From Eledone cirrhosa (taxonomy: Eukaryota), in contig OZ024742.1 of the NCBI GenBank assembly GCA_964016885.1, positions 178,498,001-178,562,000 of the forward strand: DNA of 64,000 nucleotides, in the 5' to 3' direction. Positions within the stretch are counted from its first letter, which is position 1; each line of letters begins with the position of its first letter. Under the pieces are notes generated by a model, which did not search any database, had not been told where the DNA came from, and was given only the letters and a program-made list of their open reading frames with translations. Positions 21,741 to 63,800 of this stretch are shown here, piece by piece. The translations under genes were made by a program, and so were the position numbers.

Positions 21741-22982
21741 AGTGTTGTTTAATTGCTGGTTCTGCACCAATGTTCCTTCAAAAGACAGTCAACAAAATTT
21801 TGCAATTAACCGTGAATAAACTGAGCGTGGTGGTTTTGTTGGGGTCACTCATTTTTCCTTTGAAGGTAATTTGAAAACTTATTCTTTTAATATATATAAA
21901 CATATTTTGGAATTGTAGTTGAGTAGCAAATGACTTGATCTGAGATTGTGTGTTGAAACTAAAACAATTGTGGAAGTCATTAATAGCTCCTAAACAGTTC
22001 TGTCTGCCCAATTTCACTGATAAGGCATGGGTTGACCTGAGGCTTTGCTAAATAATGCTAGCAGTGGAATCAAACCCAGCACCTAATTGGTTGTGAAGTG
22101 AACCTCTTAACCATTTGACCATCTTAAGTCCCCGTGGGTACTTCAGACATTGGACTCTAGCCATCCTGGAGCACCAGCTTAGTGTTTTCAGTTGATTATG
22201 TCAATCCCAGAATTTATTTTATTGATTGATGTTGACCTTGAAAAAATAAACAGTAAGGAGGGCCTGTGTGTGAGACTTGAACTCCAAATGTAGAGGGTCA
22301 CAACCAAAGAGCATCAAGTATATGGTCTGATGCTCTACCAATTCTGCATGTTGCCTATGTACATGCCCAGGAATAAGAGACTTGTTGACTGTGGATTTGA
22401 CAGATGTTACACACAAAAAATGCCTTGTGGTATTTAATCACAGCAATTTTCATTTCTGAGTTCAATCTTAACTGAGGTTCTCCTCCTCCTTATCATCCTT
22501 ATCATCTTCACATCATCATCATCATCACTCTCTCCCACTTTTTTTTTTGACAAACTTTCTATATCTGGATGCCCCTCCTATCATCAACCACTATACAGGA
22601 TTGTGCTGGCTGATCGTTTATCATGGTGTAGCTGAAGCATCCTATCAACCCTTTTATTTGGCAGGCACTGTGAGGCTAGATGCTCTTCCTATCACCAACC
22701 AATTTACAGAGCATACTTGATGCATTTATCATGTAGATCACCAACACTAGGAGGTTGTTAAGTCTATGGCATAACTGAAGTCTTCCCAACTCTTTGTTTG
22801 GCAGCTTTTCTATGGCTGGATGCCCTTCCTGTCACCAACCACTTTACAGAATGTACTGGACAATCTTTATCCTGCTGATATATATATATATTTTTTTTTT
22901 TGTGATGTTTTTTGGGTGTTTTTTTGTTTTCTTTTAATTTTTTTGATTGTTTTTCTCCCCAAAATGTAGGTGATGAAAGGCT

Positions 22983-23271
22983 ATGGTGGCTGAACAATTA
23001 AGCAATCGTGAAGATCTTATTGAAAATCTCGACTCTGAACCAGTATTTGATTACCTGCTTCAGCATGGTGTCATCAGCAAAGAAATCTACAATGATATCA
23101 ATGAAGAAGAAGTTATGCCTCTACGGAACCGAGCCCTGCTGCAACACTTGGAAGGTCTTCACAGTAGCAATGCGATGGCCTTCTTTATTAATGCTCTACG
23201 ACAATCGGGGCAGCTTGACTTAGCAAGCTCTCTTGACTTCACCAAAAGAATTAAACCCGTCCATGGAACAG
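22983..23271 (+). CDS. CARD-domain protein, coding exon 1 (CARD)
   Basis: Polypyrimidine + AG acceptor at 22968-69; in-frame TGA TGA just upstream of ATG 22983. NREDLIENLDSEPVFDYLLQHGVISKEIYNDI...RNRALLQHL...AMAFFINALRQSGQLDLASSL fits the six-helix CARD pattern. Donor AG|GTAAAA, phase 1. Confidence 0.88.
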
Positions 23272-23639
23272 GTAAAAAAAAGGAAAATTTATTTATTTAT
23301 TTATCTGGTTAACTTAAGAAGCATTGGGGAAATTTGAAATGTAGTTGTTCCAACGCAGATGAACATAATAATAATAATCAATCACTATAAATATTAGTTT
23401 TAAAAATCAAGTAAATTACTTTTGAAGAGAGGATCGGGGGGGAACAGAGGCACCTGCATTGAAACAAACCCCACAGAGGTGTATCTGTTCCCTATTTTAT
23501 TCAATCTCCAGGGGTATTTTACTTGATTTAGTATCACAGTGCCTGTACTGGTGTATAGGTCTTTTATATTATGGCATATTACTAGTCTACTCGGTGTTAT
23601 GTCGTCACTTATAATGAAACTATCTCTTATGATTTTCAG

Positions 23640-23666
23640 GTTATTTGCAAAGAGACCGATATAAAG
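23640..23666 (+). CDS. CARD-domain protein, 27-nt micro-exon (GYLQRDRYK)
   Basis: TTTTCAG| acceptor and AAG|GTAAG donor; phase 1-1; open and in frame with both neighbouring exons. Confidence 0.75.
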
Positions 23667-23781
23667 GTAAGCTATTAACTACAAAATATTCCACTTCTTT
23701 ATCCTACTTAACTCATCAGATGCTATGTATCTTGCAGTTTTGTTTCCCTACTTTACCCATTAACTTTCTATTCGCTCTTAA

Positions 23782-24001
23782 CACTTGAGCATTTAAAATG
23801 GTCGGATCCAGCCAGAATTCTCTCACCTCTTTTCTGTTCAAACCGGCCATAATAGGCTGCTCATACGTATGTTAAAGTATTGTTCTTAAAATATAATATC
23901 AAAATCTCATAGATTCGATATTATTTGTGATAATTATGTGAATTAAAGTGTTTAAGGTGAAAATACAATAGTAAATATAGAGTAATGTAAATGCTAAAGG
24001 G
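23782..24001 (+). mobile_element. piggyBac-type MITE family A (intronic)
   Basis: TTAA flanks and family body. Confidence 0.8.
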
Positions 24002-25462
24002 TTAATCTTCTCTAACATGAAAAAGCATAAACAGGTACAAAAGTGGTATGACTGCATAACATTAAAAATTAAAAGCTCTAGTCTAATACTGTAAATATTC
24101 TCAGTAGTCAGTCTACTTGTAAAGATACTATAAACATTTGAATTAATAAACCACAGGAAACTGCATTGGCAGGATATTCTTGAAAAGTACAAAACAGTGC
24201 TATGACTGCATCACATTGAAAATGTTCACATTGATATGTCCATCAGAAAAGTAAGATACTCAAAACATTTGAATTCACAAACTACATTAACTAGACATGA
24301 GGTCGTTAAAATAAAGCACTAGTAATGCACTAGGGTTGATTTAATTGACTTTCCCCTCTCTCCCAAAATAGCTGGCCTTGTGCCTATATTAGAAATCATT
24401 ATTGAAAAGTAAAAAACAGCATTGTGACTGCATTACATTAAAAGTTAAAGTCTAATCTAATTTGTTCTAGAACCACATTCATTACCACAAAAATTTGTTA
24501 TCACATCATCATTTAATGTCCATTTTCCCTACTGGCTAGGGTTGAGCAGATCATATCCTTACTTAATTGGCACTACTGACTTTTTTAATGGGCTGGGGAT
24601 TGTATCTTGCTTACATACATTCTCGCAATCTCTCTCTCCCTACATAATGCCAGATTCATTTCCATGCCACCAACACTAGGGAAGTTGCCATGTCTCTGAC
24701 AATACTAAAAACTCATATGCCAAATTGTTCAATATTTTCATTTATAGATGCCTTGACAGCCCCACAATAGATCTACTGTTTAGAATTGCCACAAAACAAT
24801 TGAGACAACAGCTTCAGCTTCTCAAAAGTATTTTGTTAATCAAAACAAAACCTAAGAAAAATTTTGTCGGAAAATATTTTGCAGATTTTGAATCTCTGCT
24901 ATTCAAAACATAAAAATTTAAAGATTGTATGCACAATCAAAGGGTGGTGACATAATTCAAAAACTTCATCATCATCACTTTCCATGTTGGTATGGGTTGG
25001 ATGGTCATTATGACTCAAGTCAGTAGTTCTTAGTTAGCAGTTACTACCCTCCTGGACAGCATGAAGGATCACATCTCACTTGTACATTCCAATTTTGGCC
25101 TGAGTTCCATGACTTAGATGCCCTTCCTACCTCCAACCACTTTACAGAGTGTACTGGTGGTTTTATTTCTAGCACATCACAACATCAGTAAAATATAATC
25201 TCATATCTGTGAAGAAAAAGGTTTCCTTTTCTACCTTTTGGAAGCAAAGCAGACTTTGACATAAACTCAACTACTAAAAATGAAATAAGATAATGATTTT
25301 ACGTAATAAAGATAATTATTCAAATTAAGATATTGTAATGACCTATTGAACTTAATTACTATTCTTAAAAGTTTTAATTAAAAATAAATTCTAATTGCTT
25401 ATTTAACTACTTCATATCCCAAAACAATATTTGCTCATTTAAGACATAAATTACATGCAGTA

Positions 25463-27047
25463 ATCACCACCACTACCACCATACCATCATCACCACCACT
25501 ACTACCATACCATCATCACCACCACTACTACCATACCATCATCACCACTACTACCATACCATCATCACCACCACTACCACCATACCATCATCACCACCAC
25601 TACTACCATACCATCATCACCACCACTACCACCATACCATCATCACCACTACTACCACCATACCATCATCACCACCACTACCACCATACCATCATCACCA
25701 CCACTACCACCATACCATCATCACCACCACTACCACCATACCATCATCACCACCACTATCACCATACCATCATCACCACCACTATCACCATACCATCATC
25801 ACCACCACTATCACCATACCATCATCACCACCACTATCACCATACCATCATCACCACCACTATCACCATACCATCATCACCACCATCATCACCACCACTA
25901 CCACCATACCATCATCATTATCACCACCACTACCACCATACCATCATCATTATCACCACCATACCATCATCATTATCACCACCACCACCATAATCATCAT
26001 TACTACCACCACCACCACCATAATCAACATCATTACCACCACTACCACCAACATCATTATCACTACCACTACCATCATCATCATCTTCATCACCACCACC
26101 ACCATAATCATCATCATTGCCATTACCACCACCACCACCATAATCAACATCATTACCACCACCACCACCACCATAATCATCATTGCCACCACCACCACCA
26201 CCACCACCATAATCAACATCATTACCACCACCACCAACATAATCAACATCATTACCACCACCACCACCATAAAAAACATCATTACCACCACCACCACCAT
26301 AAAAAACATCATTACCACCACCACCACCACCATAAAAAACATCATTACCACCACCACCACCATAATCAACATCATTACCACCACCACCACCATAATCAAC
26401 ATCATTACCACCACCACCACCATTATCATCATCATTGCCACCACCACCACCATAATCAACATCATTACCACCACCACCACCATAATCAACATCATTACCA
26501 CCACCACCACCATTATCATCATCATTGCCACCACCACCACCATAATCAACATCATTACCACCACCACCACCATAATCAACATCATTGCCACCACCACCAC
26601 CACCATAATCATCATCATTGCCACCACCACCACCACCATTATCATCATCATTGCCACCACCACCACCATAATCAACATCATTACCACCACCACCACCATA
26701 AAAAACATCATTACCACCACCACCACCATAATCAACATCATTACCACCACCACCACCATAATCAACATCATTGCCACCACCACCACCACCATAATCATCA
26801 TTGCCACCACCACCACCATAATCAACATCATTGCCACCACCACCACCATAATCAACATCATTACCACCACCATAATCAACATCATTACCACCACCACCAT
26901 AATCAACATCATTGCCACCACCACCACCACCATAATCAACATCATTGCCACCACCACCACCATAATCAACATCATTGCCACCACCACCATCATAATCACC
27001 ACCACTACCACCACCATCCTCATCACCACTACAACCTTCATCATCAT
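25463..27047. repeat. Compound ACC/ATC-rich minisatellite (~26-bp units, then ~30-bp units)
   Basis: CCATCATCACCACCACTAYCACCATA units to ~25950, then ATAATCAACATCATTRCCACCACCACCACC units. Confidence 0.9.
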
Positions 27048-28399
27048 TTCACGTCCATCTTACATACTGGCATTGGTTGTCATGTTCTGAGACTCAGCTG
27101 GTCAGATAACCACATCCTGCTCATATGTTCTAAGTTGGCGTGATCTCTACAGCTGGATGCCCTTCCTAAAACCAACCACTTTACAGGGTGTATTGTGGCA
27201 CCAGCATACTACTTTACAGATTGGATTGGGTGCATTTCATTGTGGCACCAGCTCTACCACTTTACTAAATGGACTGGAACAAGCATACCACTTTATAGAG
27301 TGGACTGGGTACATTTTGTTGTGCTAGCATACCACATTAGAATGAACTGGGTGCATTTTATTGTGGCACCAGCACTAGAGAAGTTGTTACCTGCTAGACC
27401 ATACTGGAGAATCAATATATTGTTATTCTGTTTTATTGGTATTACCTGGTGTGTATCTCAGCTGTTGTTACAGTATCTGGTATGTTATGGTTATTGTTAT
27501 AATATCAAAAGCCATTTAAGAAAGATATTTGGGTAAGAAAAAGAAAGAAGTTTTTGTCCATTATTCAAAGATGCACTTGGTGACTCCACCCCCCACCCAC
27601 ACACACCTTCTATAGAGCGACAAAGTATCCGATAAACTCTTAAAAGGAGTAGAAGTATTAAAAAATCTGTAAAAATGTAGTTTAATGTTTTCACTTATAC
27701 AGATTGTAGTAATGTTACTACCACAATAAAATTCAGTCGGTCCACTCTGTCAAGGGGTGATGATACAGCTATAATAAAATGTACCCAGTCCTCTCTACAA
27801 AGAGGTAGTACTAGTGACAAGATAATATATACCTAATCCACTCTGTAATCGTAGGGCTGGTGCCATGATAAAATGCACCCAGTCTACTCTATGAAGTTGT
27901 AGTGCTTGTGTCATGTGGTGCTAGTGCCACAATAAAATGCACTTAGTACACACTGCAAAAGGGTAATGCTGGTACCACAATAAAATACACCCAGTACACA
28001 TTGTAAAGTGGTAGATATTGATAAATAAATGACAACTTAAAATCTGCATTCTTTTTATTGATTATCATTTTTTATTGAATAACTGTTTAGCTAAGTTATG
28101 TGACATCTGGCTTATTAATGTTAGTAAGTTAGTGTGAACTATAACTAATAAAAATATGCTGACCTGATTGAAACGTGAACAGGTATAATGTCATGAAAAA
28201 TTGTCATTTGTCATATTTCATGTAAAAAGCATAAATAATTCTAAAAATAATTAGTAATTAATACCGTAAATATCACCGTCATCATACATATGTTTTTTTT
28301 CATGATGGCATGGTTTGGGTGGTTGTTTTCCAGTACAGCTTTGATCCATTAATTGCATTCTTTCACCATCAATGAATAAGGTACCAATCATTATCATGT

Positions 28400-28880
28400 T
28401 ACTGCAATTGGTGCAGCCAGTTGGGGTGCCACTCTAGATGCTTTTGCAGTCAGTCATCACCATTGGGTCTCTATTCTCCATCATGTGTAGAAGGGCTTCA
28501 GTGTTGTGACCAGCGCAAGCTTTGATATTATTGGATCAGGATTTTCTTTTCCTCTTCTTCACCCTCCCTTGACTATGCCCTGAAGGATGGTGAAAAGACA
28601 GAAGCTTGTCTGGTATGGTCATATATCCCACCACAACTCCTTGGCTGAAACCATCCTTTAGTGCACAGTTGAGGGAGGGTGAAGAAGAGGCAAACAAAGA
28701 AAAGTACCAATACAGGGCAGTGAATTGGCAGGATCATTACAGTATTGGTTGTGGGTCATTATCTCTTTCAATCCTTTGTGTTGAGTTCACCTGCAACTTC
28801 AATGGTGCTAAGCTGTATCAATCCTTGACTTTCCCCGCAAAACTCTCTTTGTCTTCAGCTGTGTCTTGAAGACAAACTTT
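28400..28880 (-). mobile_element. Decayed RTE-like LINE 3' fragment
   Basis: Minus strand reads TILQGIVKGG*RRGK-like (consensus TILQGxVEGxRxRGRP), with a tail near 28280-28320. Confidence 0.5.
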
Positions 28881-29166
28881 CCAAGTGCAGATCCTTTTTC
28901 ACAAGACATACAAGGGCCCTAGATATGTATATTGGGAAAATAGAATAATTAGTACATTAAATATATGTTATTGATCAAAATCTATTTAAGATTTTGAAGG
29001 TTTTCACATATAGATTGTAATAGCACTTGTACCATAATAAAATGAACCCAGTACACTCTGTAAAGTGATAGTGTTAGTGCAAATTCATGGTCATACAAGA
29101 CATATAAGGGCTCTACTAGATATGAACATTGGGAGAATAGAATATTGCGTACATTTCGTTTTTTAA

Positions 29167-29387
29167 CCCTTTAGCATTTAAACCAGCCGTATCCATCCAG
29201 AACTCTGTCAGCTCTTTCTGTTCAAACCAGCTGTAACTGGCCACTCATACCTACATTAACGTATTGTTCTCAAAATATATAACATCAAAATCTCATACAT
29301 TCGATATTGTGTGAGATAATTATGTGAGATAAAGCCTTTACTGTGAAAATGTAATAGTAAATATAGAGTAATGTAAATGATAAATGG
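29167..29387 (+). mobile_element. piggyBac-type MITE family A (intronic)
   Basis: TTAA flanks (29163-66, 29388-91) and TIRs. Confidence 0.8.
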
Positions 29388-29490
29388 TTAAGTATTTTGT
29401 CTTTGATTTAAATGTATTTAAGATTTTGAAGATGATATTAGCTAGTAAATGTTTTCTAAATATAATAATTATGTATGTTTTCAATTTTAG

Positions 29491-30599
29491 GTCAAGTTGC
29501 TATCCGTATCCAAGTGGAGGCTGTTAAGGCACTCGTTCCAAAGATGGAACTATTGGACAGAGTAAGTGTAGAAGACCTTAGCAGCAGCACAGGAACACAC
29601 AGTGTTGAGATCAGTTTCTCTCCAAGTCGCCGCCGGCACTGCTCTTATGAGAATATGACATTATTGGAGTCACCTGAAGAAGGAGCAACTCTTCAACCAC
29701 ATCTTATCAAAGAATATGCTTATAGCCATGAAGAGGATGATGACATCATCAAACCCAAGAGATGCTGGTGTATCTGCTTCCCAAGCCTATTCCGCCGCAA
29801 AAAAGATTCCAAACAAAAGAAGCATAACGTTCCAAATCGTCGCGATCGAACACAACAAGTAACTCCTCCAGACATTTCACGTTATACCAATGTAGTGACC
29901 AGTTCTCCATCTACTCGTATTAAGTGGCATGAAGAAAGGGCATCACTAAATGGTAAATATTATCTGAACAAAAAGTCTAGCAAAAGTCACAGAAATGAAA
30001 ATCCTAATATTACTGATATTGTTCATTACAAAAATTCATTGAACGAAAGTCACTTTTCTTCTCCTGAATCCTTGAAAAGTCGACACTCTGGTAATTCCGT
30101 TCTGATTCAGGGCTATAAGAAAGACTCAAATAGCGTTGCTTCCAGCAGAAACAGTATGTTTCCTGGGCCATCTCCTGCTAAACAAGGAATGTTCATGTCA
30201 TTGGAGCAAGGCAAATCAATATCTCGGAAGGTTGAATTAACTGAAGAATGGCGTGGAGATGGGGAGGTTTTGGATGAAAAAGCTCACAAATTTTATGTCC
30301 TTTTTGACAGTGCTGGAAATTCACACTATACAAACTTGATAAAATATTTCGAACAAGGTCGAGGCACACTCGTCATGAGTGCACTTCGAAGAGACACACT
30401 AGTTGTAATGAATATTTGTATGACAAAAAACCAATTAAAACAATTGCAGGCAGATTATTCATCTGGCAAGCTAACTCGTGATATTGAACAGCGACTAGTC
30501 AACATGCAGGTGTTAAATGCAGTTGATGCTAAAGAGTTGCGTCTTTCCACTATAATAGATGATAGCGAATTTAGCCAAGCTGAAGAAGAGCTTGGGTGA
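29491..30599 (+). CDS. CARD-domain protein, terminal coding exon (disordered linker + DEDD/TRADD-N-like C-terminus)
   Basis: TTTTAG| acceptor at 29489-90, phase 1; 1109-nt open frame in AT-rich DNA ending in TGA. The spliced CDS is 289+27+1109=1425 nt (474 aa). AATAAA at ~31293 and ~31528. Confidence 0.9.
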
Positions 30600-30751
30600 A
30601 ATGCTGACCAATGGAAAATGGATAGTAATTTTACTGAGTGACTGTTTTGGTGCTCTTCGACATATTAAATTATTTAAACACTTTTGTATCTTATATCTCT
30701 GTTAAAATTTTTAAACAAAATATACATCATTATATTTATAAAATCTTGGGT

Positions 30752-30966
30752 TGTGGATTGGCAGTATCAGTAGTGCGTCAGACAAAATGCTTTGTGGTAT
30801 TTAATTATGACATTCTACAGTCTGATTTCAAATCCCGCCGAGGTCAACTTCACCTTTCATCCCTGTGGGGTCGATAAATTAAAGTACCAGTGAAGTACTG
30901 GGGTCGATGTAATCGACTTCCCCTTCCCATCAAAATTTCTGGCTTGTGCCTGTTAGAAACCATTAT
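30752..30966 (+). mobile_element. Meta-like SINE in the putative 3'UTR
   Basis: Family head, core and tail; flanked by the direct repeat CATTATATTTATAAAATCT (~30728 and ~30961). Confidence 0.8.
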
Positions 30967-33900
30967 ATTTATAAAATCTGCAACTTTAAATATTTAAGTT
31001 AGTAAGGATTTTTCCATCCTTTTTTTTTTTCCTTTTTTTGTTGTTGTTTGAACATATTTAATGTCAAGTGTCACAAAAACCTTTATTATTCCTTCTGATA
31101 TAATCAGAAGGAATATTTCTAGGTTAGTATGAGTTGAAAAAACAAAAAGGATGCTGTGCAAATTAAACTTATGACAAAAGCATATTATAAAATTATTTAT
31201 GTCTTTTTTCAATCTGAGGAACTAAGTAAAATATTAAGCTACTATTCCATCGTTTCTAGAAAAACACTTCTCTCAGTTATTTAACTAAACTAAATAAACG
31301 AAATAATTATTTTTACTGAATGGTAAAGATTTTGTGAGATTATAATTATTAAAAAAAAACATTCTGTGAAAACTGTTTAGGTAAGAGGAACTTGATTATT
31401 TATAGATTTATTTTTTATAGGACACGAAAATACTGCTCTCTCAATTCTCACATAAAATTGTCAGATATTTCGTATAGGTAATAAATCTTTTAAAAAAACC
31501 ATTATAATATATATATTTCTCCCAACGAATAAAAGAAATATATTTTAAAAAAATTATATCGTCTTTTATCTGTTATAGAAGCAAAAATAATTTCCACATT
31601 TAGCAAAGTAATTGTTATATATTTCTTTTAAATATACCTCCTGCATACTGAGTTCAAATCCTGCCAAGGTCAACATTGCCTTTCATCCTCCTAGGGTTGA
31701 TAATATTAAGTACTGGGGTTCATTTTTCCATTTCCCTTATTTGATTCCTGGACCAGGTTGTGTGTTGTGTTGAGCAAAACACTTCATTTAACTGAAAATT
31801 AATATCAGCAGTAGGTGGGGGTTTAACCTTGTGATAGATTGGCATCTTGCCCAGCGGAGGTCTTGTGCTCTCAGTTGCCCAATAGCAAAGAAACTGGGAG
31901 AAGCACTGGATTTATGATCCTCCAAGCTTGAGACAGACTTTAGACATAGAACATACTCAACTCAGTATATATAAAAATGAAGGTGTAGTGATACTGATTA
32001 TAAATATTAACATATTTACTGCAGGAGGTGGGGAAATACCTCAGATATGTGTTCTGCCTATTACATACAAATATATTTATGGTGAATGGAAAAAAATATA
32101 TTCCCTCTATTTCTCCATATATCAATAACTCTGTCCTACCAACTGAATGTTGTTCATCTTCTGGGATCAAAGACATTGGGTGGAGCATCTTCGGCTGTGT
32201 ATCTGGAGGTGACTAGTGAAGCCAAATTATGTCCAGAAACCACACCCACATGTGGATATATGCTGAAGTGGATGTGGCTCATTTTCTCTGAGACTTTGAA
32301 ATATGTCTGGTTTCTGCTGCACTTGTTCCCTCAAAGATTTTGCTTTGCCAGTTTTGGCAATCCTGGGCAAGTGATTCCCAACTACCGGGATTGATATTGA
32401 GGGACACTGAATAGAATATGCTTCTCTAATAAGACTGGAATGTGTATATTACTTTCACCAGTTGGTCTTACAGGCTAGATCCACTCGGACATGCATTGCC
32501 TATAATGTTGAATTTTTTTGATAAACTTATCTTATTGGAGTTATTCCCCCGTGATTGTGATTTTAGATTTTTAATGCCTCTTAAATGAAGTTTGTGTCCA
32601 CTAATTGCTTTGATAATTTTAGTTAAAGTTTTTCAACTCACGATATTTCTTATGTGAGACCCTACAGTATTTGTAATGTGTGTGTTTCATATGTATGCTC
32701 CTGAGTTCTTACTACAACTGAATGTAAAAGTCTCTCTCTCTCACACATACACACACACATCTGACTCTATTTTAACCCTGTTTTTCATTTACACACAGAT
32801 CTAAAAATGCCCCGCTAAAAAACAGCCCCTCCCCTTCCCTACATCAGTAGAACTGGTTTTCAGAAGCACTCTCTTTTGTGATGCTCTAAATATATGGCTC
32901 TTGACTGGTTTCAAACGCTTCTAACATTGAGAGGCATTTTAACCCCCAAAGCTCTTTTCTGCCACATAGCTGAGTGACATGTTTTCTGTGGAGTGGGGAG
33001 AGGGGGGTTGTTTTTGTTGATTTTTACAGTATGCTTTTATCAAAAGAATTCTGTTTACCAAGCAGGGTCGTTGCTAGCATTAAGGCCTAGCTAGAGTGCA
33101 AACCCCAGAGAGGCACATTACTGAACCTTATAGTTTTATACAGGGCCAGTACTACCATTAACGTCAACTAGACAGCCAACTACAGTGCAGACCTCAGAGA
33201 AGCACATTACTGAAACTTAAAGGACCACAATTTTATACAAATTTGTATAATTAACAATAAGTATACAATAATTGACTGTGATCAATAAATAGTTATACAT
33301 CTTTGCTGCAGAGCAGCATTGTGAAAATATCAAAAGCACTGGATATTTCATATAGTGTTATGACCTGTCATGGCTGAGTGTGAACTATGTAGTGTAAAAA
33401 GCAGGCTTAGTAACTTTCTTAGTGTGGCCAGAGCAGGAAATGTGAGACACTAGATTTGTCATCTTACCAAACTATAAGATGAAGTTATTTGGGGGGAAAG
33501 GTGAAAACTGTGAAAAGGTGGTACATATAGAATTAGCCTAGAGTGCTAAATACCCTAACACCAACTCTGCTCTTAATATCTTCCTTACGGGGTCGATAAA
33601 ATAAAGTACCAGTAATGAACTGGGTAATTGCTGGCCTTGTGCCTAAAGTAGAAACATATTTCTTAATGCAGTTTTTTTTTTTAATTCTCATTACATATGT
33701 TGATTTCCAATGCTTAAAAGTTTGTTAAATTTAACTTGAAGAGAACACACTGTGACTTACCATCTCTTGTTAAATTTAGCCTAGAAAGAACATCTTGTTT
33801 TTACCATTTTGTCTTAGCATCTCTTGTTATATTTAACCTTGAGAGACTACCGTGTGTTCGACACTTTATTCTGCCATCTCTCATTGTAAATTTTAATCAA

Positions 33901-37700: not shown

Positions 37701-39408
37701 AGGCCCACAGGTATGTTTTCACTGCTCTGCTAAGGTAACACTGACTAACAGACTACTGAGGGCCAGAGGTATGTTTTCACTGCTCTGCTAAGGTGACACT
37801 GACTAACGAACTACTGAGGGCCAGGGGTATGTTTTCACTGCTCTGCTAAGGTAACACTGACTAACGAACTGCTGAGGGCCAGAGGTATGTTTTCACTGCT
37901 CTAAGGTGACACTGACTAACGAACTACTGAGGGCCAGAGGTATGTTTTCACTGCTCTGCTAAGGTGACACTGACTAACGAACTACTGAGGGCCAGAGGTA
38001 TGTTTTCACTGCTCTGCTAAGGTGACACTGACTAACGAACTACTGAGGGCCAGAGGTATGTTTTCACTGCTCTGCTAAGGTGACACTGACTAACGAACTA
38101 CTGAGAGCCAGAGGTATGTTTTCACTGCTCTGCTAAGGTAACACTGACTAACGAACTACTGAGGGCCAGAGGTATGTTTTCACTGCTCTGCTAAGGTAAC
38201 ACTGACTAACGAACTACTGAGGGCCAGAGGTATGTTTTCACTGCTCTGCTAAGGTAACACTGACTAATGGACTACTGAGGGCCAGAGGTATGTTTTCACT
38301 GCTCTGCTAAGGTGACACTGACTAACGAACTACTGAGGGCCAGAGGTATGTTTTCACTGCTCTGCTAAGGTAACACTGACTAACGAACTACTGAGGGCCA
38401 GAGGTATGTTTTCACTGCTCTGCTAAGGTGACACTGACTAACGAACTACTGAGGGCCAGAGGTATGTTTTCACTGCTCTGCTAAGGTAACACTGACTAAT
38501 GGACTACTGAGGGCCAGAGGTATGTTTTCACTGCTCTGCTAAGGTGACACTGACTAACGAACTACTGAGGGCCAGAGGTATGTTTTCACTGCTCTGCTAA
38601 GGTAACACTGACTAACGAACTACTGAGGGCCAGAGGTATGTTTTCACTGCTCTGCTAAGGTAACACTGACTAACAGACTACTGAGGGCCAGAGGTATGTT
38701 TTCACTGCTCTGCTAAGGTAACACTGACTAATGGACTACTGAGGGCCAGAGGTATGTTTTCACTGCTCTGCTAAGGTGACACTGACTAACGAACTACTGA
38801 GGGCCAGAGGTATGTTTTCACTGCTCTGCTAAGGTAACACTGACTAACGCACTACTGAGGGCCAGAGGTATGTTTTCACTGCTCTGCTAAGGTAACACTG
38901 ACTAACAGACTACTGAGGGCCAGAGGTATGTTTTCACTGCTCTGCTAAGGTAACACTGACTAATGGACTACTGAGAGCCAGAGGTATGTTTTCACTGCTC
39001 TGCTAAGGTAACACTGACTAATGGACTACTGAGAGCCAGAGGTATGTTTTCACTGCTCTGCTAAGGTAACACTGACTAATGGACTACTGAGAGCCAGAGA
39101 TATGTTTTCACTGCTCTGCTAAGGTAACACTGACTAATGGACTACTGAGAGCCAGAGGTATGTTTTCACTGCTCTGTTAAGGTAACACTGACTAACAGAC
39201 TACTGAGGGCCAGAGGTATGTTTTCACTGCTCTGCTAAGGTGAAACTAACAGACTACTGAGGGCCAGAGTTATGTTTTCACTGCTCTGCTAAGGTGAAAC
39301 TGACTAACAGACTACTGAGGGCCAGAGGTATGTTTTCACTGCTCTGCTAAGGTGACACTGACTAATGGACTACTCAGGGCCAGGCTCTATGTTTTCACTG
39401 CTCACTTA
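37701..39408. repeat. 58-bp tandem minisatellite, ~29 copies
   Basis: Unit GAGGGCCAGAGGTATGTTTTCACTGCTCTGCTAAGGTRACACTGACTAACGAACTACT; period confirmed from 38161 to 38219. Confidence 0.95.
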
Positions 39409-51420: not shown

Positions 51421-51777
51421 CAAGCTAGAAACAAATCTGTATGAGTAAGACAAGGCCACCAGAACTAACATGTCTCAGAATGTGACAACCCATCTAATCT
51501 ATGCAAGCATTTGCCAAATTAAAGGTTGGAAAGATTCTTCAGTTGCATCAAAGGCATGACAGTGTTGGTGATCTACATAATAAATGCACCCAGTATATTC
51601 TGTAAACTATTTGGTAGTAGGAAGAGCATAGCATCCAGCCATAGAAAGCTTGGCTAACAAAGGAATGGAGGAATTTTTTACTTGTCAAAGGTATGGCAAC
51701 TTTCCTAGTGTTGCTGATCAACACAATAAACACACCCAGTGGACTCTGTAAAGTAGTTGGAGGTAGAAAGGGCATCC

Positions 51778-52200
51778 AAACAAAGAATTGGGAGGACCTT
51801 TCCCTTGTGTCAAAGGAATGAAAACCTCCCTAGTGTTGGTGATCTACATTGTAAATGTACCCAGTACAGTGTAAAATGTCTGGTGAGAGGAAGGGCATCC
51901 AACAGTTGAAAGCTTGCCAAACAAAGAATTGGGAGGACCTTTCCCTTGTGTCAAAGGAATGAAAACCTCCCTAGTGTTGGTGATCTACATTGTAAATGTA
52001 CCCAGTACAGTGTAAAATGTCTGGTGAGAGGAAGGGCATCCAACAGTTGAAAGCTTGCCAAACAAAGAATTGGGAGGACCTTTCCCTTGTGTCAAAGGAA
52101 TGAAAACCTCCCTAGTGTTGGTGATCTACATTGTAAATGTACCCAGTACAGTGTAAAATGTCTGGTGAGAGGAAGGGCATCCAACAGTTGAAAGCTTGCC
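51778..52200. repeat. 141-bp tandem repeat, 3 identical copies
   Basis: AAACAAAGAATTGGGAGGACC at 51778, 51919 and 52060. Confidence 0.9.
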
Positions 52201-53049
52201 AAAGTTTTGGAAGGACTCTCCAGCTGCGTCAAAGATATGACAGTCTCCCTAGTGCTGGTGCTATGATAAAATGCACTTGGTAGGATGCAGGGAACATATG
52301 TAAGCCCATCTGAGAGGTCAGTGGCTCTGTTACTTGAGTATTGATGAGAACTGACTCAGCCTGTAATATACATCATCATCACCATCATCACTGTTTAACA
52401 TCTATTTCTCCATGCTTTCATCGGTTAGATGGATCGTCCATGTTATGATACAAGTTTGGCCAATACCCTCTCAAGCTATTGTGACATTCTCTCGTATTTT
52501 ATTTCCATTCACTGATTATATATGGAAATTATGTAAATAGAAGGATATTTGGCCAGACCTAGTTACATTTTATTATAAAATGTGCCTTAAGCTAGTCAAT
52601 ATTTCTGGGTCAGTAGGAAGGGACCAAATGGTCTTATATTTTACCCTTAGATTAGAAATGTCTCATATAGGACACCATAGTTAGTGACTCTTTCATTCCT
52701 TCTCACATCTTGGATGTTAGAGTGAAGTTAAGTGAGAAAAAACCTGCATACCCAATCACACGTCACCAGGAGCAATCGAGTTTCTCTAATATTTTTTTAA
52801 ATCACAGGTATTATTATTTCAGTGGGAAATATTCTTTATTCTTTGTGTTTTTTTTTTTCGTATGTTTAAACTTAACTCTTCATATGCTGCAAAGGACTTT
52901 TTCTCTGTGAGTTTTTTCTTATTTTTCGTGAGTTATATAATTCACTTTTTTTAGTTAATGTGAGGGTTAGGGGTTAGGTTTAGAGCAGTCGTTCCCACCC
53001 TTTTTTTCTCTATGCCCCATCTCAACAACTAAAAAATGTTTGTCTCCTT

Positions 53050-60989: not shown

Positions 60990-63800
60990 CAGAAAGGGAT
61001 GGATAAAATAGAAATGAGAATGATCTGGCAGATCAGTGGAGTATCATGGGGGGGGGGGGGGGGAGAGAGAGACGATGACAATGAATTACAGAAGATGATG
61101 AGAATAGAGCCTATGACGACTGTTGTGAAGAGAAATGGAATGAGATGGTTAGGCCATGTGTTGAGGAAGGATGAAAGTGACTGGGTGATGAGAATAGGGC
61201 CTATGTCGACTGTTGTGAAGAGAAATGGAATGAGATGGATGGGTCATGTGTTGAGGAAAGACAAAAGTGACTGGGTGATGAGAATAGAGCCTATGGCGAC
61301 TGTTGTGAAGAGAAATGGAATGAGATGGATGGGTCATGTGTTGAGGAAAGACAAAAGTGACTGGGTGATGAGAATAGAGCCTATGGCGACTGTTGTGAAG
61401 AGGAATGAGATGGTTGGGCCATGTGTTGAGGAAGAAGGAAAGTGACTGGGTGATGGGAATAGAGCCTATGATGAATGTTGTGAAGAGAAATGGAATGAGA
61501 TGGATGGGTCATGTGTTGAGGAAAGAGAAAAATGACTGGGTGATGAGAATAGAGCCTATGATGAATGTTGTGAGGAGAAATGGAATGAGATGGTTGGGCC
61601 ATGTGTTGAGGAAGAAGGAAAGTGACTGGGTGATGAGAATAGAGCCTATGATGAATGTTGTGAAGAGAAATGGAATGAGATGGTTGGGTCATGTGTTGAG
61701 GAAAGAGAAAAGTGACTGGGTGATGGGAATAAAGCCTATGATGAATGTTGTGAAGAGAAATGGAATGAGATGGTTGGGTCATGTGTTGAGGAAAGAGAAA
61801 AGTGACTGGGTGATGGGAATAAAGCCTATGATGAATGTTGTGAAGAGAAATGGAATGAGATGGATGGGTCATGTGTTGAGGAAAGAGAAAAGTGACTGGG
61901 TGATGGGAATAAAGCCTATGATGAATGTTGTGAAGAGAAATGGAATGAGATGGTTGGGTCATGTGTTGAGGAAAGAGAAAAGTGACTGGGTGATGGGAAT
62001 AAAGCCTATGATGAATGTTGTGAAGAGAAATGGAATGAGATGGATGGGTCATGTGTTGAGGAAAGAGAAAAGTGACTGGGTGATGGGAATAAAGCCTATG
62101 ATGAATGTTGTGAAGAGAAATGGAATGAGATGGTTGGGTCATGTGTTGAGGAAAGAGAAAAGTGACTGGGTGATGGGAATAAAGCCTATGATGAATGTTG
62201 TGAAGAGAAATGGAATGAGATGGATGGGTCATGTGTTGAGGAAAGAGAAAAGTGACTGGGTGATGGGAATAAAGCCTATGATGAATGTTGTGAAGAGAAA
62301 TGGAATGAGATGGTTGGGTCATGTGTTGAGGAAAGAGAAAAGTGACTGGGTGATGGGAATAAAGCCTATGATGAATGTTGTGAAGAGAAATGGAATGAGA
62401 TGGTTGGGTCATGTGTTGAGGAAAGAGAAAAGTGACTGGGTGATGGGAATAAAGCCTATGATGAATGTTGTGAAGAGGAATGAGATGGTTGGGTCATGTG
62501 TTGAGGAAAGAGAAAAGTGACTGGGTGATGGGAATAAAGCCTATGATGAATGTTGTGAAGAGAAATGGAATGAGATGGTTGGGTCATGTGTTGAGGAAAG
62601 AGAAAAGTGACTGGGTGATGGGAATAAAGCCTATGATGAATGTTGTGAAGAGAAATGGAATGAGATGGTTGGGTCATGTGTTGAGGAAAGAGAAAAGTGA
62701 CTGGGTGATGGGAATAAAGCCTATGATGAATGTTGTGAAGAGAAATGGAATGAGATGGTTGGGTCATGTGTTGAGGAAAGAGAAAAGTGACTGGGTGATG
62801 GGAATAAAGCCTATGATGAATGTTGTGAAGAGAAATGGAATGAGATGGATGGGTCATGTGTTGAGGAAAGAGAAAAGTGACTGGGTGATGGGAATAAAGC
62901 CTATGATGAATGTTGTGAAGAGAAATGGAATGAGATGGTTGGGTCATGTGTTGAGGAAAGAGAAAAGTGACTGGGTGATGGGAATAAAGCCTATGATGAA
63001 TGTTGTGAAGAGAAATGGAATGAGATGGATGGGTCATGTGTTGAGGAAAGACAAAAGTGACTGGGTGATGAGAATAGAGCCTATGATGAATGTTGTGAAG
63101 AGGAATGAGATGGTTGGGTCATGTGTTGAGGAAAGACAAAAGTGACTGGGTGATGAGAATAGAGCCTATGATGAATGTTGTGAAGAGGAATGAGATGGTT
63201 GGGTCATGTGTTGAGGAAAGAGAAAAGTGACTGGGTGATGGGAATAAAGCCTATGATGAATGTTGTGAAGAGAAATGGAATGAGATGGATGGGTCATGTG
63301 TTGAGGAAAGAGAAAAGTGACTGGGTGATGGGAATAAAGCCTATGATGAATGTTGTGAAGAGAAATGGAATGAGATGGATGGGTCATGTGTTGAGGAAAG
63401 ACAAAAGTGACTGGGTGATGAGAATAGAGCCTATGATGAATGTTGTGAAGAGGAATGAGATGGTTGGGTCATGTGTTGAGGAAAGACAAAAGTGACTGGG
63501 TGATGAGAATAGAGCCTATGATGAATGTTGTGAAGAGAAATGGAATGAGATGGATGGGTCATGTGTTGAGGAAAGAGAAAAGTGACTGGGTGATGGGAAT
63601 AAAGCCTATGATGAATGTTGTGAAGAGAAATGGAATGAGATGGATGGGTCATCTGTTTTAATGTCATAGGAAGTGGAGGCAGAAAAACATGGCTAAAAAT
63701 GATGGAAGTGTGCAGACAATAGAAAAAAATAGAGAAGCTTGGCATGGGGTTCCCTGCAATGTTAATCTCTGCTTTATCAGTGAAGACAACCGTAAAACTG
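60990..63800 (+). mobile_element. RTE-like LINE ORF2 3' fragment hosting an internal tandem expansion
   Basis: IEMRMIWQISGVSW (cf. TEMRMLRWMCGV) precedes the RWLGHVLR repeats (cf. RLRWFGHVxR), and GRKTW (cf. GRPRKTW) follows them. Confidence 0.8.
61094..63655 (+). repeat. 90-bp tandem array, 29 units (five are 85-bp deletion variants)
   Basis: The unit translates as MRW(L/M)GHVLRKEKSDWVMGIKPMMNVVKRNG. The 5-nt deletion follows 61400, 62475, 63100, 63185 and 63450. Confidence 0.95.

What the first reader, a model, noticed from the sequence alone, without database searches (positions are those of the whole stretch)
22983..30599. CARD + DEDD/TRADD-N-like death-fold adaptor with an unusual architecture
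Seen: a spliced 474-aa ORF with an N-terminal CARD and a C-terminus DTLVVMNICMTKNQLKQLQADYSSGKLTRDIEQRLVNMQVLNAVDAKELRLSTIIDDSEF. Known: as I recall it, the DEDD C-terminal region reads GSIICDIKFSELTYLDAFWRDYINGSLLEALKGVFITDSLKQAVGHEAIKLLVNVDEEDY and is related to TRADD-N, which in TRADD binds TRAF2. Inference: a non-catalytic adaptor coupling CARD signalling to TRAF-type partners. I do not recognise this domain combination as a named gene, so it may be a mollusc/cephalopod innate-immune or apoptosis adaptor.
Basis: partly seen in the sequence, partly recalled or inferred. Interest (0 to 1): 0.75.

Follow-up and report, generated by a model that had tools for sequence, protein, structure and literature searches.

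The report
Octopus CARD adaptor with split TRADD-N
This is a real, spliced octopus gene, conserved across molluscs, annelids and a brachiopod, whose protein pairs a cell-death recruitment domain (CARD) with a TRADD-N-type domain predicted to be split by a 230-residue loop, and a conserved cysteine cluster in that loop likely anchors the protein to membranes, where it would regulate caspase signalling.

Summary
The 474-aa three-exon gene is confirmed: both junctions lie in single transcript-like contigs from three runs. The CARD passes Pfam's cut-off. The C-terminus is a TRADD-N domain of the DEDD2 type (hhalign 98.7% to coral PF20694 domains). The combination is not new: Kaur et al. 2021 list CARD+TRADDN-DEDD2 proteins, including a Lingula member of this family, though not the mollusc orthologues I looked up. 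(1) The domain is split: strand 1 (residues 106-122) follows the CARD and is predicted to fold into the C-terminal sheet across a ~230-aa disordered loop (complex score 0.77, best control 0.01). (2) The loop carries a Cys + hydrophobic + basic motif in 61 of 61 members that span it (8.8 expected by shuffling), likely a palmitoylation anchor. (3) The Gly-Ser motif tied to TRAF2 binding is lost (7 of 100, against 32 of 32 in coral-type domains), so TRAF coupling is doubtful. Best reading: a conserved, low-copy, non-catalytic, membrane-tethered CARD adaptor. Partners and lipidation are untested. New variant of a known kind; moderate interest.

The parts
22970..23271 (+). Coding exon 1 (acceptor AG 22968-22969, ATG 22983); encodes the CARD (residues 6-88, 22998-23246) and the start of the linker
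23640..23666 (+). 27-nt micro-exon; conserved CARD-to-strand-1 linker
   Evidence: same residues in orthologues P0001 and P0003
29491..30599 (+). Coding part of exon 3 (residues 106-474 and stop)
29491..29540 (+). Displaced strand 1 of the TRADD-N domain (residues 106-122)
   Evidence: AF2 strand 107-122 with pLDDT 85-95; predicted between strands 410-412 and 456-461; coral strand-1 profile ranks it first in the orthologue
29541..30224 (+). About 228-aa Ser/Lys-rich inserted loop, predicted disordered
   Evidence: pLDDT mostly under 50 for 143-348; 10-20% identity to non-cephalopod members
29760..29804 (+). Cys cluster + hydrophobic + polybasic motif RCWCICFPSLFRRKK (196-210); likely S-palmitoylation membrane anchor (inferred)
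   Evidence: 61 of 61 members, 8.8 expected by shuffling; C199 and C201 invariant in 16 full-length members
30228..30596 (+). Remainder of the TRADD-N (DEDD2-type) domain, residues 352-474, with the family YFEQxRG motif (30345-30365) and Asp-Thr (30393-30398) in place of Gly-Ser
30600..31300 (+). 3' UTR (at least this far), with a high-copy repeat at about 30699-30960
   Evidence: X14 contig continuous to 31300; repeat stretch skipped in the X1 contig

Best explanation
The gene encodes a CARD protein with no detected catalytic domain whose TRADD-N-type domain is predicted to be split by a long disordered loop, and it likely acts as a palmitoyl-anchored membrane adaptor that would recruit and regulate a CARD partner such as an initiator caspase. 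Shown: gene structure, CARD, homology of the C-terminus to DEDD2-type TRADD-N, conservation of the Cys/basic motif, loss of the Gly-Ser motif, one match in this genome. Predicted: strand 106-122 completes the sheet, so CARD and TRADD-N sit side by side (about 18-residue linker) and the loop hangs out of the domain. Inferred: the cysteines are S-acylated and, with the basic run, hold the protein on a membrane; the CARD binds a caspase-9/-2/Apaf-1-type CARD; the TRADD-N domain packs against the CARD or binds a non-TRAF partner and sets the on/off state. Confidence is about 0.9 for the architecture and about 0.5 for the mechanism.
Against: No experiment on any member. S-acylation has no canonical consensus, so the anchor is an inference. 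The complex pass joins two halves of one domain and may reflect likeness to known folds; peptides were not part of that tool's calibration. No structure search listed TRADD-N itself: the CARD filled the lists and the isolated C-terminal model was poor (pLDDT 53). Direct similarity to this genome's DEDD exon is within shuffle range (4.3 bits vs top shuffled 5.6); the link runs through the coral domains (E 1.1e-8). The 61 and 100 sequences include close relatives and are not independent. The CARD partner was not tested.
Confidence: 0.5

Rival explanations
1. TRADD-like adaptor: the CARD joins an upstream complex and the TRADD-N sheet recruits a TRAF MATH domain to drive NF-kB signalling.
For: Same superfamily. 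TRADD-N binds TRAF2 through its sheet (PMC7593343, passages). Octopus keeps a hydroxyl residue (Thr408) at the Ser position.
Against: The uS/uC motif is in 7 of 100 members against 32 of 32 coral-type domains, and the position is variable: G33, S16, T13, A10 (position set by a motif rule, so some rows may be out of register). Classic TRADD is vertebrate-only and MATH is not a universal partner (PMC8195603 sections 11 and 12).
Confidence: 0.15
2. Decoy or inhibitor: a membrane-held CARD that sequesters an initiator caspase or Apaf-1-type CARD away from activation, with TRADD-N as a structural cap.
For: No effector domain in Pfam scans of 77 proteins apart from weak chance hits. CARD nearest to caspase-9 and Apaf-1. 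DEDD2 is described as a negative regulator.
Against: Conserved surface motifs in the TRADD-N part (Y391, E393, Q394, R396 invariant in 16 full-length members) suggest a second binding site. The sign of the effect cannot be read from sequence.
Confidence: 0.2
3. DEDD-like nuclear or cytoskeletal protein: the basic run is a nuclear localisation signal and the cysteines bind metal or form disulfides instead of carrying lipid.
For: DEDD2 is nucleolar and has the same death-fold-then-TRADD-N order. The loop is rich in Lys and Arg.
Against: The cysteines alternate with hydrophobic residues directly before the basic run, and several members have only 2-3 Cys in the whole insert, too few for a zinc finger. 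The genome has a separate DEDD gene on contig C17.
Confidence: 0.12

Closest known systems
CARD+TRADDN-DEDD2 proteins of Kaur et al. 2021 (PMC8195603, Fig. 4 source data 1)
   Same: Same domain order. The listed Lingula XP_023931977.1 is a member of this family (E 8e-11).
   Different: Orthologue identifiers from octopus, oyster, Biomphalaria, scallop, Lottia, Pomacea and Elysia were not found in the file, which is flagged as cut. The listed mollusc proteins carry other locus tags. 'palmitoyl' has 0 hits in the 13 supplements. Sections 8, 11 and 12 mention no split strand.
DEDD/DEDD2 (DED + TRADD-N)
   Same: Death-fold domain followed by a C-terminal TRADD-N domain, no catalytic domain, conserved at low copy.
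   Different: CARD instead of DED. Strand 1 lies about 300 residues before the turn instead of 48. No Gly-Ser. Cys/basic motif present. DEDD is a separate gene here (G000:C17).
Vertebrate TRADD
   Same: TRADD-N superfamily domain plus a death-fold domain; adaptor logic.
   Different: Reversed order, CARD not death domain, TRAF2-contact motif not kept, no direct sequence or structure hit to solved TRADD-N obtained.
Coral PF20694 TRADD-like N expansions
   Same: Closest detectable relatives (hhalign 98.7%); also carry a variable insert after strand 1.
   Different: They are multi-copy with variable fused domains and invariant GS; their inserts are shorter; this family forms a separate clade.
MAVS and other membrane-anchored CARD adaptors (recalled, not tested)
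   Same: CARD plus long disordered region plus membrane tether.
   Different: No transmembrane helix; tether would be lipid; has a TRADD-N domain; no homology outside the CARD was seen.

Membership tests
CARD (PF00619) | Pfam match above gathering score | tested here: met
   43.9 bits vs 23.9
CARD (PF00619) | Six-helix death fold | tested here: met
TRADD-N superfamily, DEDD2 type | Profile homology to recognised members | tested here: met
   the Lingula member is classed so in PMC8195603
TRADD-N superfamily, DEDD2 type | Four-stranded antiparallel sheet with strand 1 between strands 3 and 4 | tested here: met
   Predicted only: contacts 109-116 with 410-412 and 456-461; strands
TRADD-N superfamily, DEDD2 type | Structural superposition on solved TRADD-N | tested here: inconclusive
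   Not listed; CARD filled the lists and the lone C-terminal model had pLDDT 53
TRADD-N superfamily, DEDD2 type | Conserved uS motif at the strand 2-3 turn | tested here: not met
   Asp407-Thr408; 7 of 100 members vs 32 of 32 coral-type domains. Filed as a divergent variant, not a canonical member
Pfam PF20694 (TRADD-like N) | Score above 23.7 bits | tested here: not met
   No hit for the window exon; one family member, P0055, scores 18.1 bits; the genome scan finds only DEDD
DEDD/DEDD2 orthologues | N-terminal DED and orthology to DEDD | tested here: not met
   CARD, not DED; a separate DEDD gene exists
TRADD-type TRAF adaptors | Binds a TRAF MATH domain | not tested
S-palmitoylated peripheral membrane proteins | Acylated cysteines | not testable with these tools
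   Motif conservation only

The most novel reading that the evidence does not exclude
A lophotrochozoan-wide, lipid-anchored CARD signalling platform: a TRADD-N domain has taken a palmitoylated membrane tether into its first loop and given up the TRAF-contact motif, giving molluscs and annelids a dedicated membrane adaptor for CARD-caspase activation with no vertebrate or insect counterpart among the named hits.
Probability: 0.3. Interest if true: 0.65.

Novelty: new variant of a known kind. Interest (0 to 1): 0.4.

Why it matters
How molluscs connect danger sensing to CARD caspases is poorly mapped. A gene kept at low copy from chitons to octopus, and in annelids and a brachiopod, is a better candidate for a core pathway component than the fast-changing TRADD-N expansions, and it amends the picture that motile cephalopods have few TRADD-N proteins. 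The split explains why Pfam labels these proteins 'CARD only' and gives direct tests: three cysteines, one strand, and an oyster orthologue (LOC105334481) in a tractable species.

Full report
Observation. Exons 22983-23271, 23640-23666 and 29491-30599 have GT-AG introns and give 474 aa. A single 2,376-nt contig of run X14 covers exon 1 and exon 3 with no differences, skips intron 1, and continues from the micro-exon into exon 3; contigs of relatives X1 and X5 do the same. The O. bimaculoides protein LOC106880179 (P0001) has the same length and 24 differences, so the window is from an octopod and P0001 numbering applies. Models and the complex below were computed on P0001, not on the window's own protein. 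The C-terminal domain has one match in the genome (a lower bound). No other credible gene was seen in the window.

CARD. PF00619 scores 43.9 bits against a cut-off of 23.9. A profile of 16 full-length members is closest to caspase-9 (E 1.8e-6) and Apaf-1 (E 1.6e-4) among natural solved CARDs, and the fold agrees. This does not identify the partner.

C-terminal domain. It has no Pfam hit. A search of 1.84 billion representatives gave 75 proteins at E<=0.001: one spurious, three coral-type PF20694 proteins, the rest a family marked by YFEQxRG. Of 77 proteins scanned, 18 hit CARD, two of them below cut-off; many others begin at the exon 3 boundary and are likely partial calls. An HMM from 73 family segments with no PF20694 seeds scores 20 of 30 coral-type proteins at E<=0.001 (those 30 were collected partly with a profile that held three such seeds). 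hhalign gives 98.7% over 111 columns, and the Atlas agrees. The coral profile in turn matches this genome's own DEDD exon on contig C17 at E 1.1e-8, while the family profile matches it only within shuffle range. So the domain is a divergent TRADD-N of the DEDD2 type, linked to DEDD through the coral domains. No structure search listed solved TRADD-N, for technical reasons.

The domain is split. A strand just after the CARD linker (106-122) is as conserved as the CARD (52% vs 55% identity to 13 non-cephalopod members), while the following ~230 residues are 10-20% conserved apart from one motif. AF2 models the strand at pLDDT 85-95 and the loop mostly below 50. Folded as two chains, 98-132 and 348-474 score 0.77 against a best control of 0.01, with at least 93% contact agreement and partner pLDDT of at least 67; the mark was reached by 51 of 78 solved and 2 of 108 mismatched pairs in calibration. 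Residues 109-116 sit between 410-412 and 456-461, the strand-1 slot of this fold. Halves of one domain can pass by likeness to known folds, so this supports the topology and is not a measurement. Independently, coral-type domains carry shorter inserts at the same place, and their strand profile ranks the family strand first in 21 of 34 members and in the top three in 30 of 34. In DEDD the strand is contiguous. In this family the insert is 74-303 aa, median 228.

The loop motif. All 61 of 104 family sequences that include both the strand and the domain have a Cys cluster with hydrophobic residues followed by three or more Lys/Arg; shuffling each insert gives 8.8. The sequences are not independent. 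There is no transmembrane helix. Cysteines beside basic runs are typical S-acylation sites, though no consensus exists (PMC4035745, passages seen). I infer a palmitoyl anchor.

TRAF question. Kaur et al. describe a conserved uS motif whose Ser67 contacts TRAF2, and state that MATH is not a universal partner (PMC8195603; abstract, passages, sections 8, 11, 12). Coral-type domains have GS in 32 of 32; the family has uS/uC in 7 of 100 (4 of 104 could not be placed), and octopus has Asp-Thr. TRAF binding was not tested directly.

Evolution. Named members span cephalopods, gastropods, bivalves, a chiton, two annelids and Lingula. Among the 41 hits each named species appears once, but candidates were capped; Lingula has two near-identical loci. 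A 60-row tree separates the family from eight coral domains (100/100) and puts 27 mollusc rows on one side (94/58, moderate), with bivalve and gastropod subgroups largely as expected. Twenty-two rows are unnamed, so the outer range is open.

Prior knowledge. Kaur's Fig. 4 source data has 53 'CARD+TRADDN' rows, including octopus KOF75889.1 and LOC106877111 and Lingula XP_023931977.1, which is our P0044. The mollusc orthologue tags I searched were absent, but the file is flagged as cut and I could not fetch KOF75889.1 to exclude that it is a gene model of this locus. The combination is therefore known; the split strand, the Cys anchor and the conserved orthologous group were not found in the sections read or in the searches listed under Tried and rejected. 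PMC7593343 was seen as passages. The MAVS comparison is recalled.

Mechanism and verdict. With strand 1 in place, CARD and TRADD-N form a compact pair and the loop projects from the domain. The likely working model is a lipid-tethered adaptor that brings a CARD partner, probably an initiator caspase or Apaf-1-type protein, to a membrane, with TRADD-N as switch or second binding site (about 0.5). Rivals are a decoy (0.2), a TRAF adaptor (0.15) and a nuclear DEDD-like role (0.12). New variant of a known kind; interest 0.4.

Noticed in passing
window 22973-22993 (+): An out-of-frame ATG 10 nt before the start opens a six-codon ORF that overlaps the main ATG (read); it could damp translation.
   Followed up: no
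window, upstream of 22968: Contigs of three related organisms carry 245 nt or more of other sequence spliced onto the exon 1 acceptor, so an upstream non-coding exon exists in relatives; it was not located here.
   Followed up: partly
window 23181-23183 and 30357-30359: The window protein has Phe67 where 16 of 16 aligned members have Leu, and Gly395 where octopod orthologues have Asp; the X14 contig carries the same letters.
   Followed up: partly
window 30699-30960: High-copy repeat (SINE-like by inference) in the 3' UTR, absent from the X1 contig: a lineage-specific insertion.
   Followed up: no
window 23831-24005 and 29215-29391: Two copies (82-86% alike) of a very high-copy repeat near the two ends of intron 2, with a 1.6-kb CAC/CAT-rich tandem array at 25463-27047 between them.
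   Followed up: no
window 61096-63657: 28.7 copies of a 90-bp unit (95% alike) that reads as an open repeat containing RWLGHVLR, which I recall as the C-terminal motif of RTE-type LINE reverse transcriptases; probably a minisatellite grown from a LINE fragment. No credible Pfam hit.
   Followed up: partly
window 37701-39403 and 51776-52203: 58-bp x 29.5 minisatellite, and a 141-bp x 3 array with 100% identical copies.
   Followed up: no
L002:1342-1905 (-) = G000:C17 near 16121267-16121443: The genome's DEDD orthologue exon, PF20694 54.8 bits.
   Followed up: yes
P0046, P0049, P0142: Long members (1,476-1,681 aa; two named from pulmonate snails) have over 1,000 extra residues before the CARD with no Pfam hit in the two scanned.
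   Followed up: no
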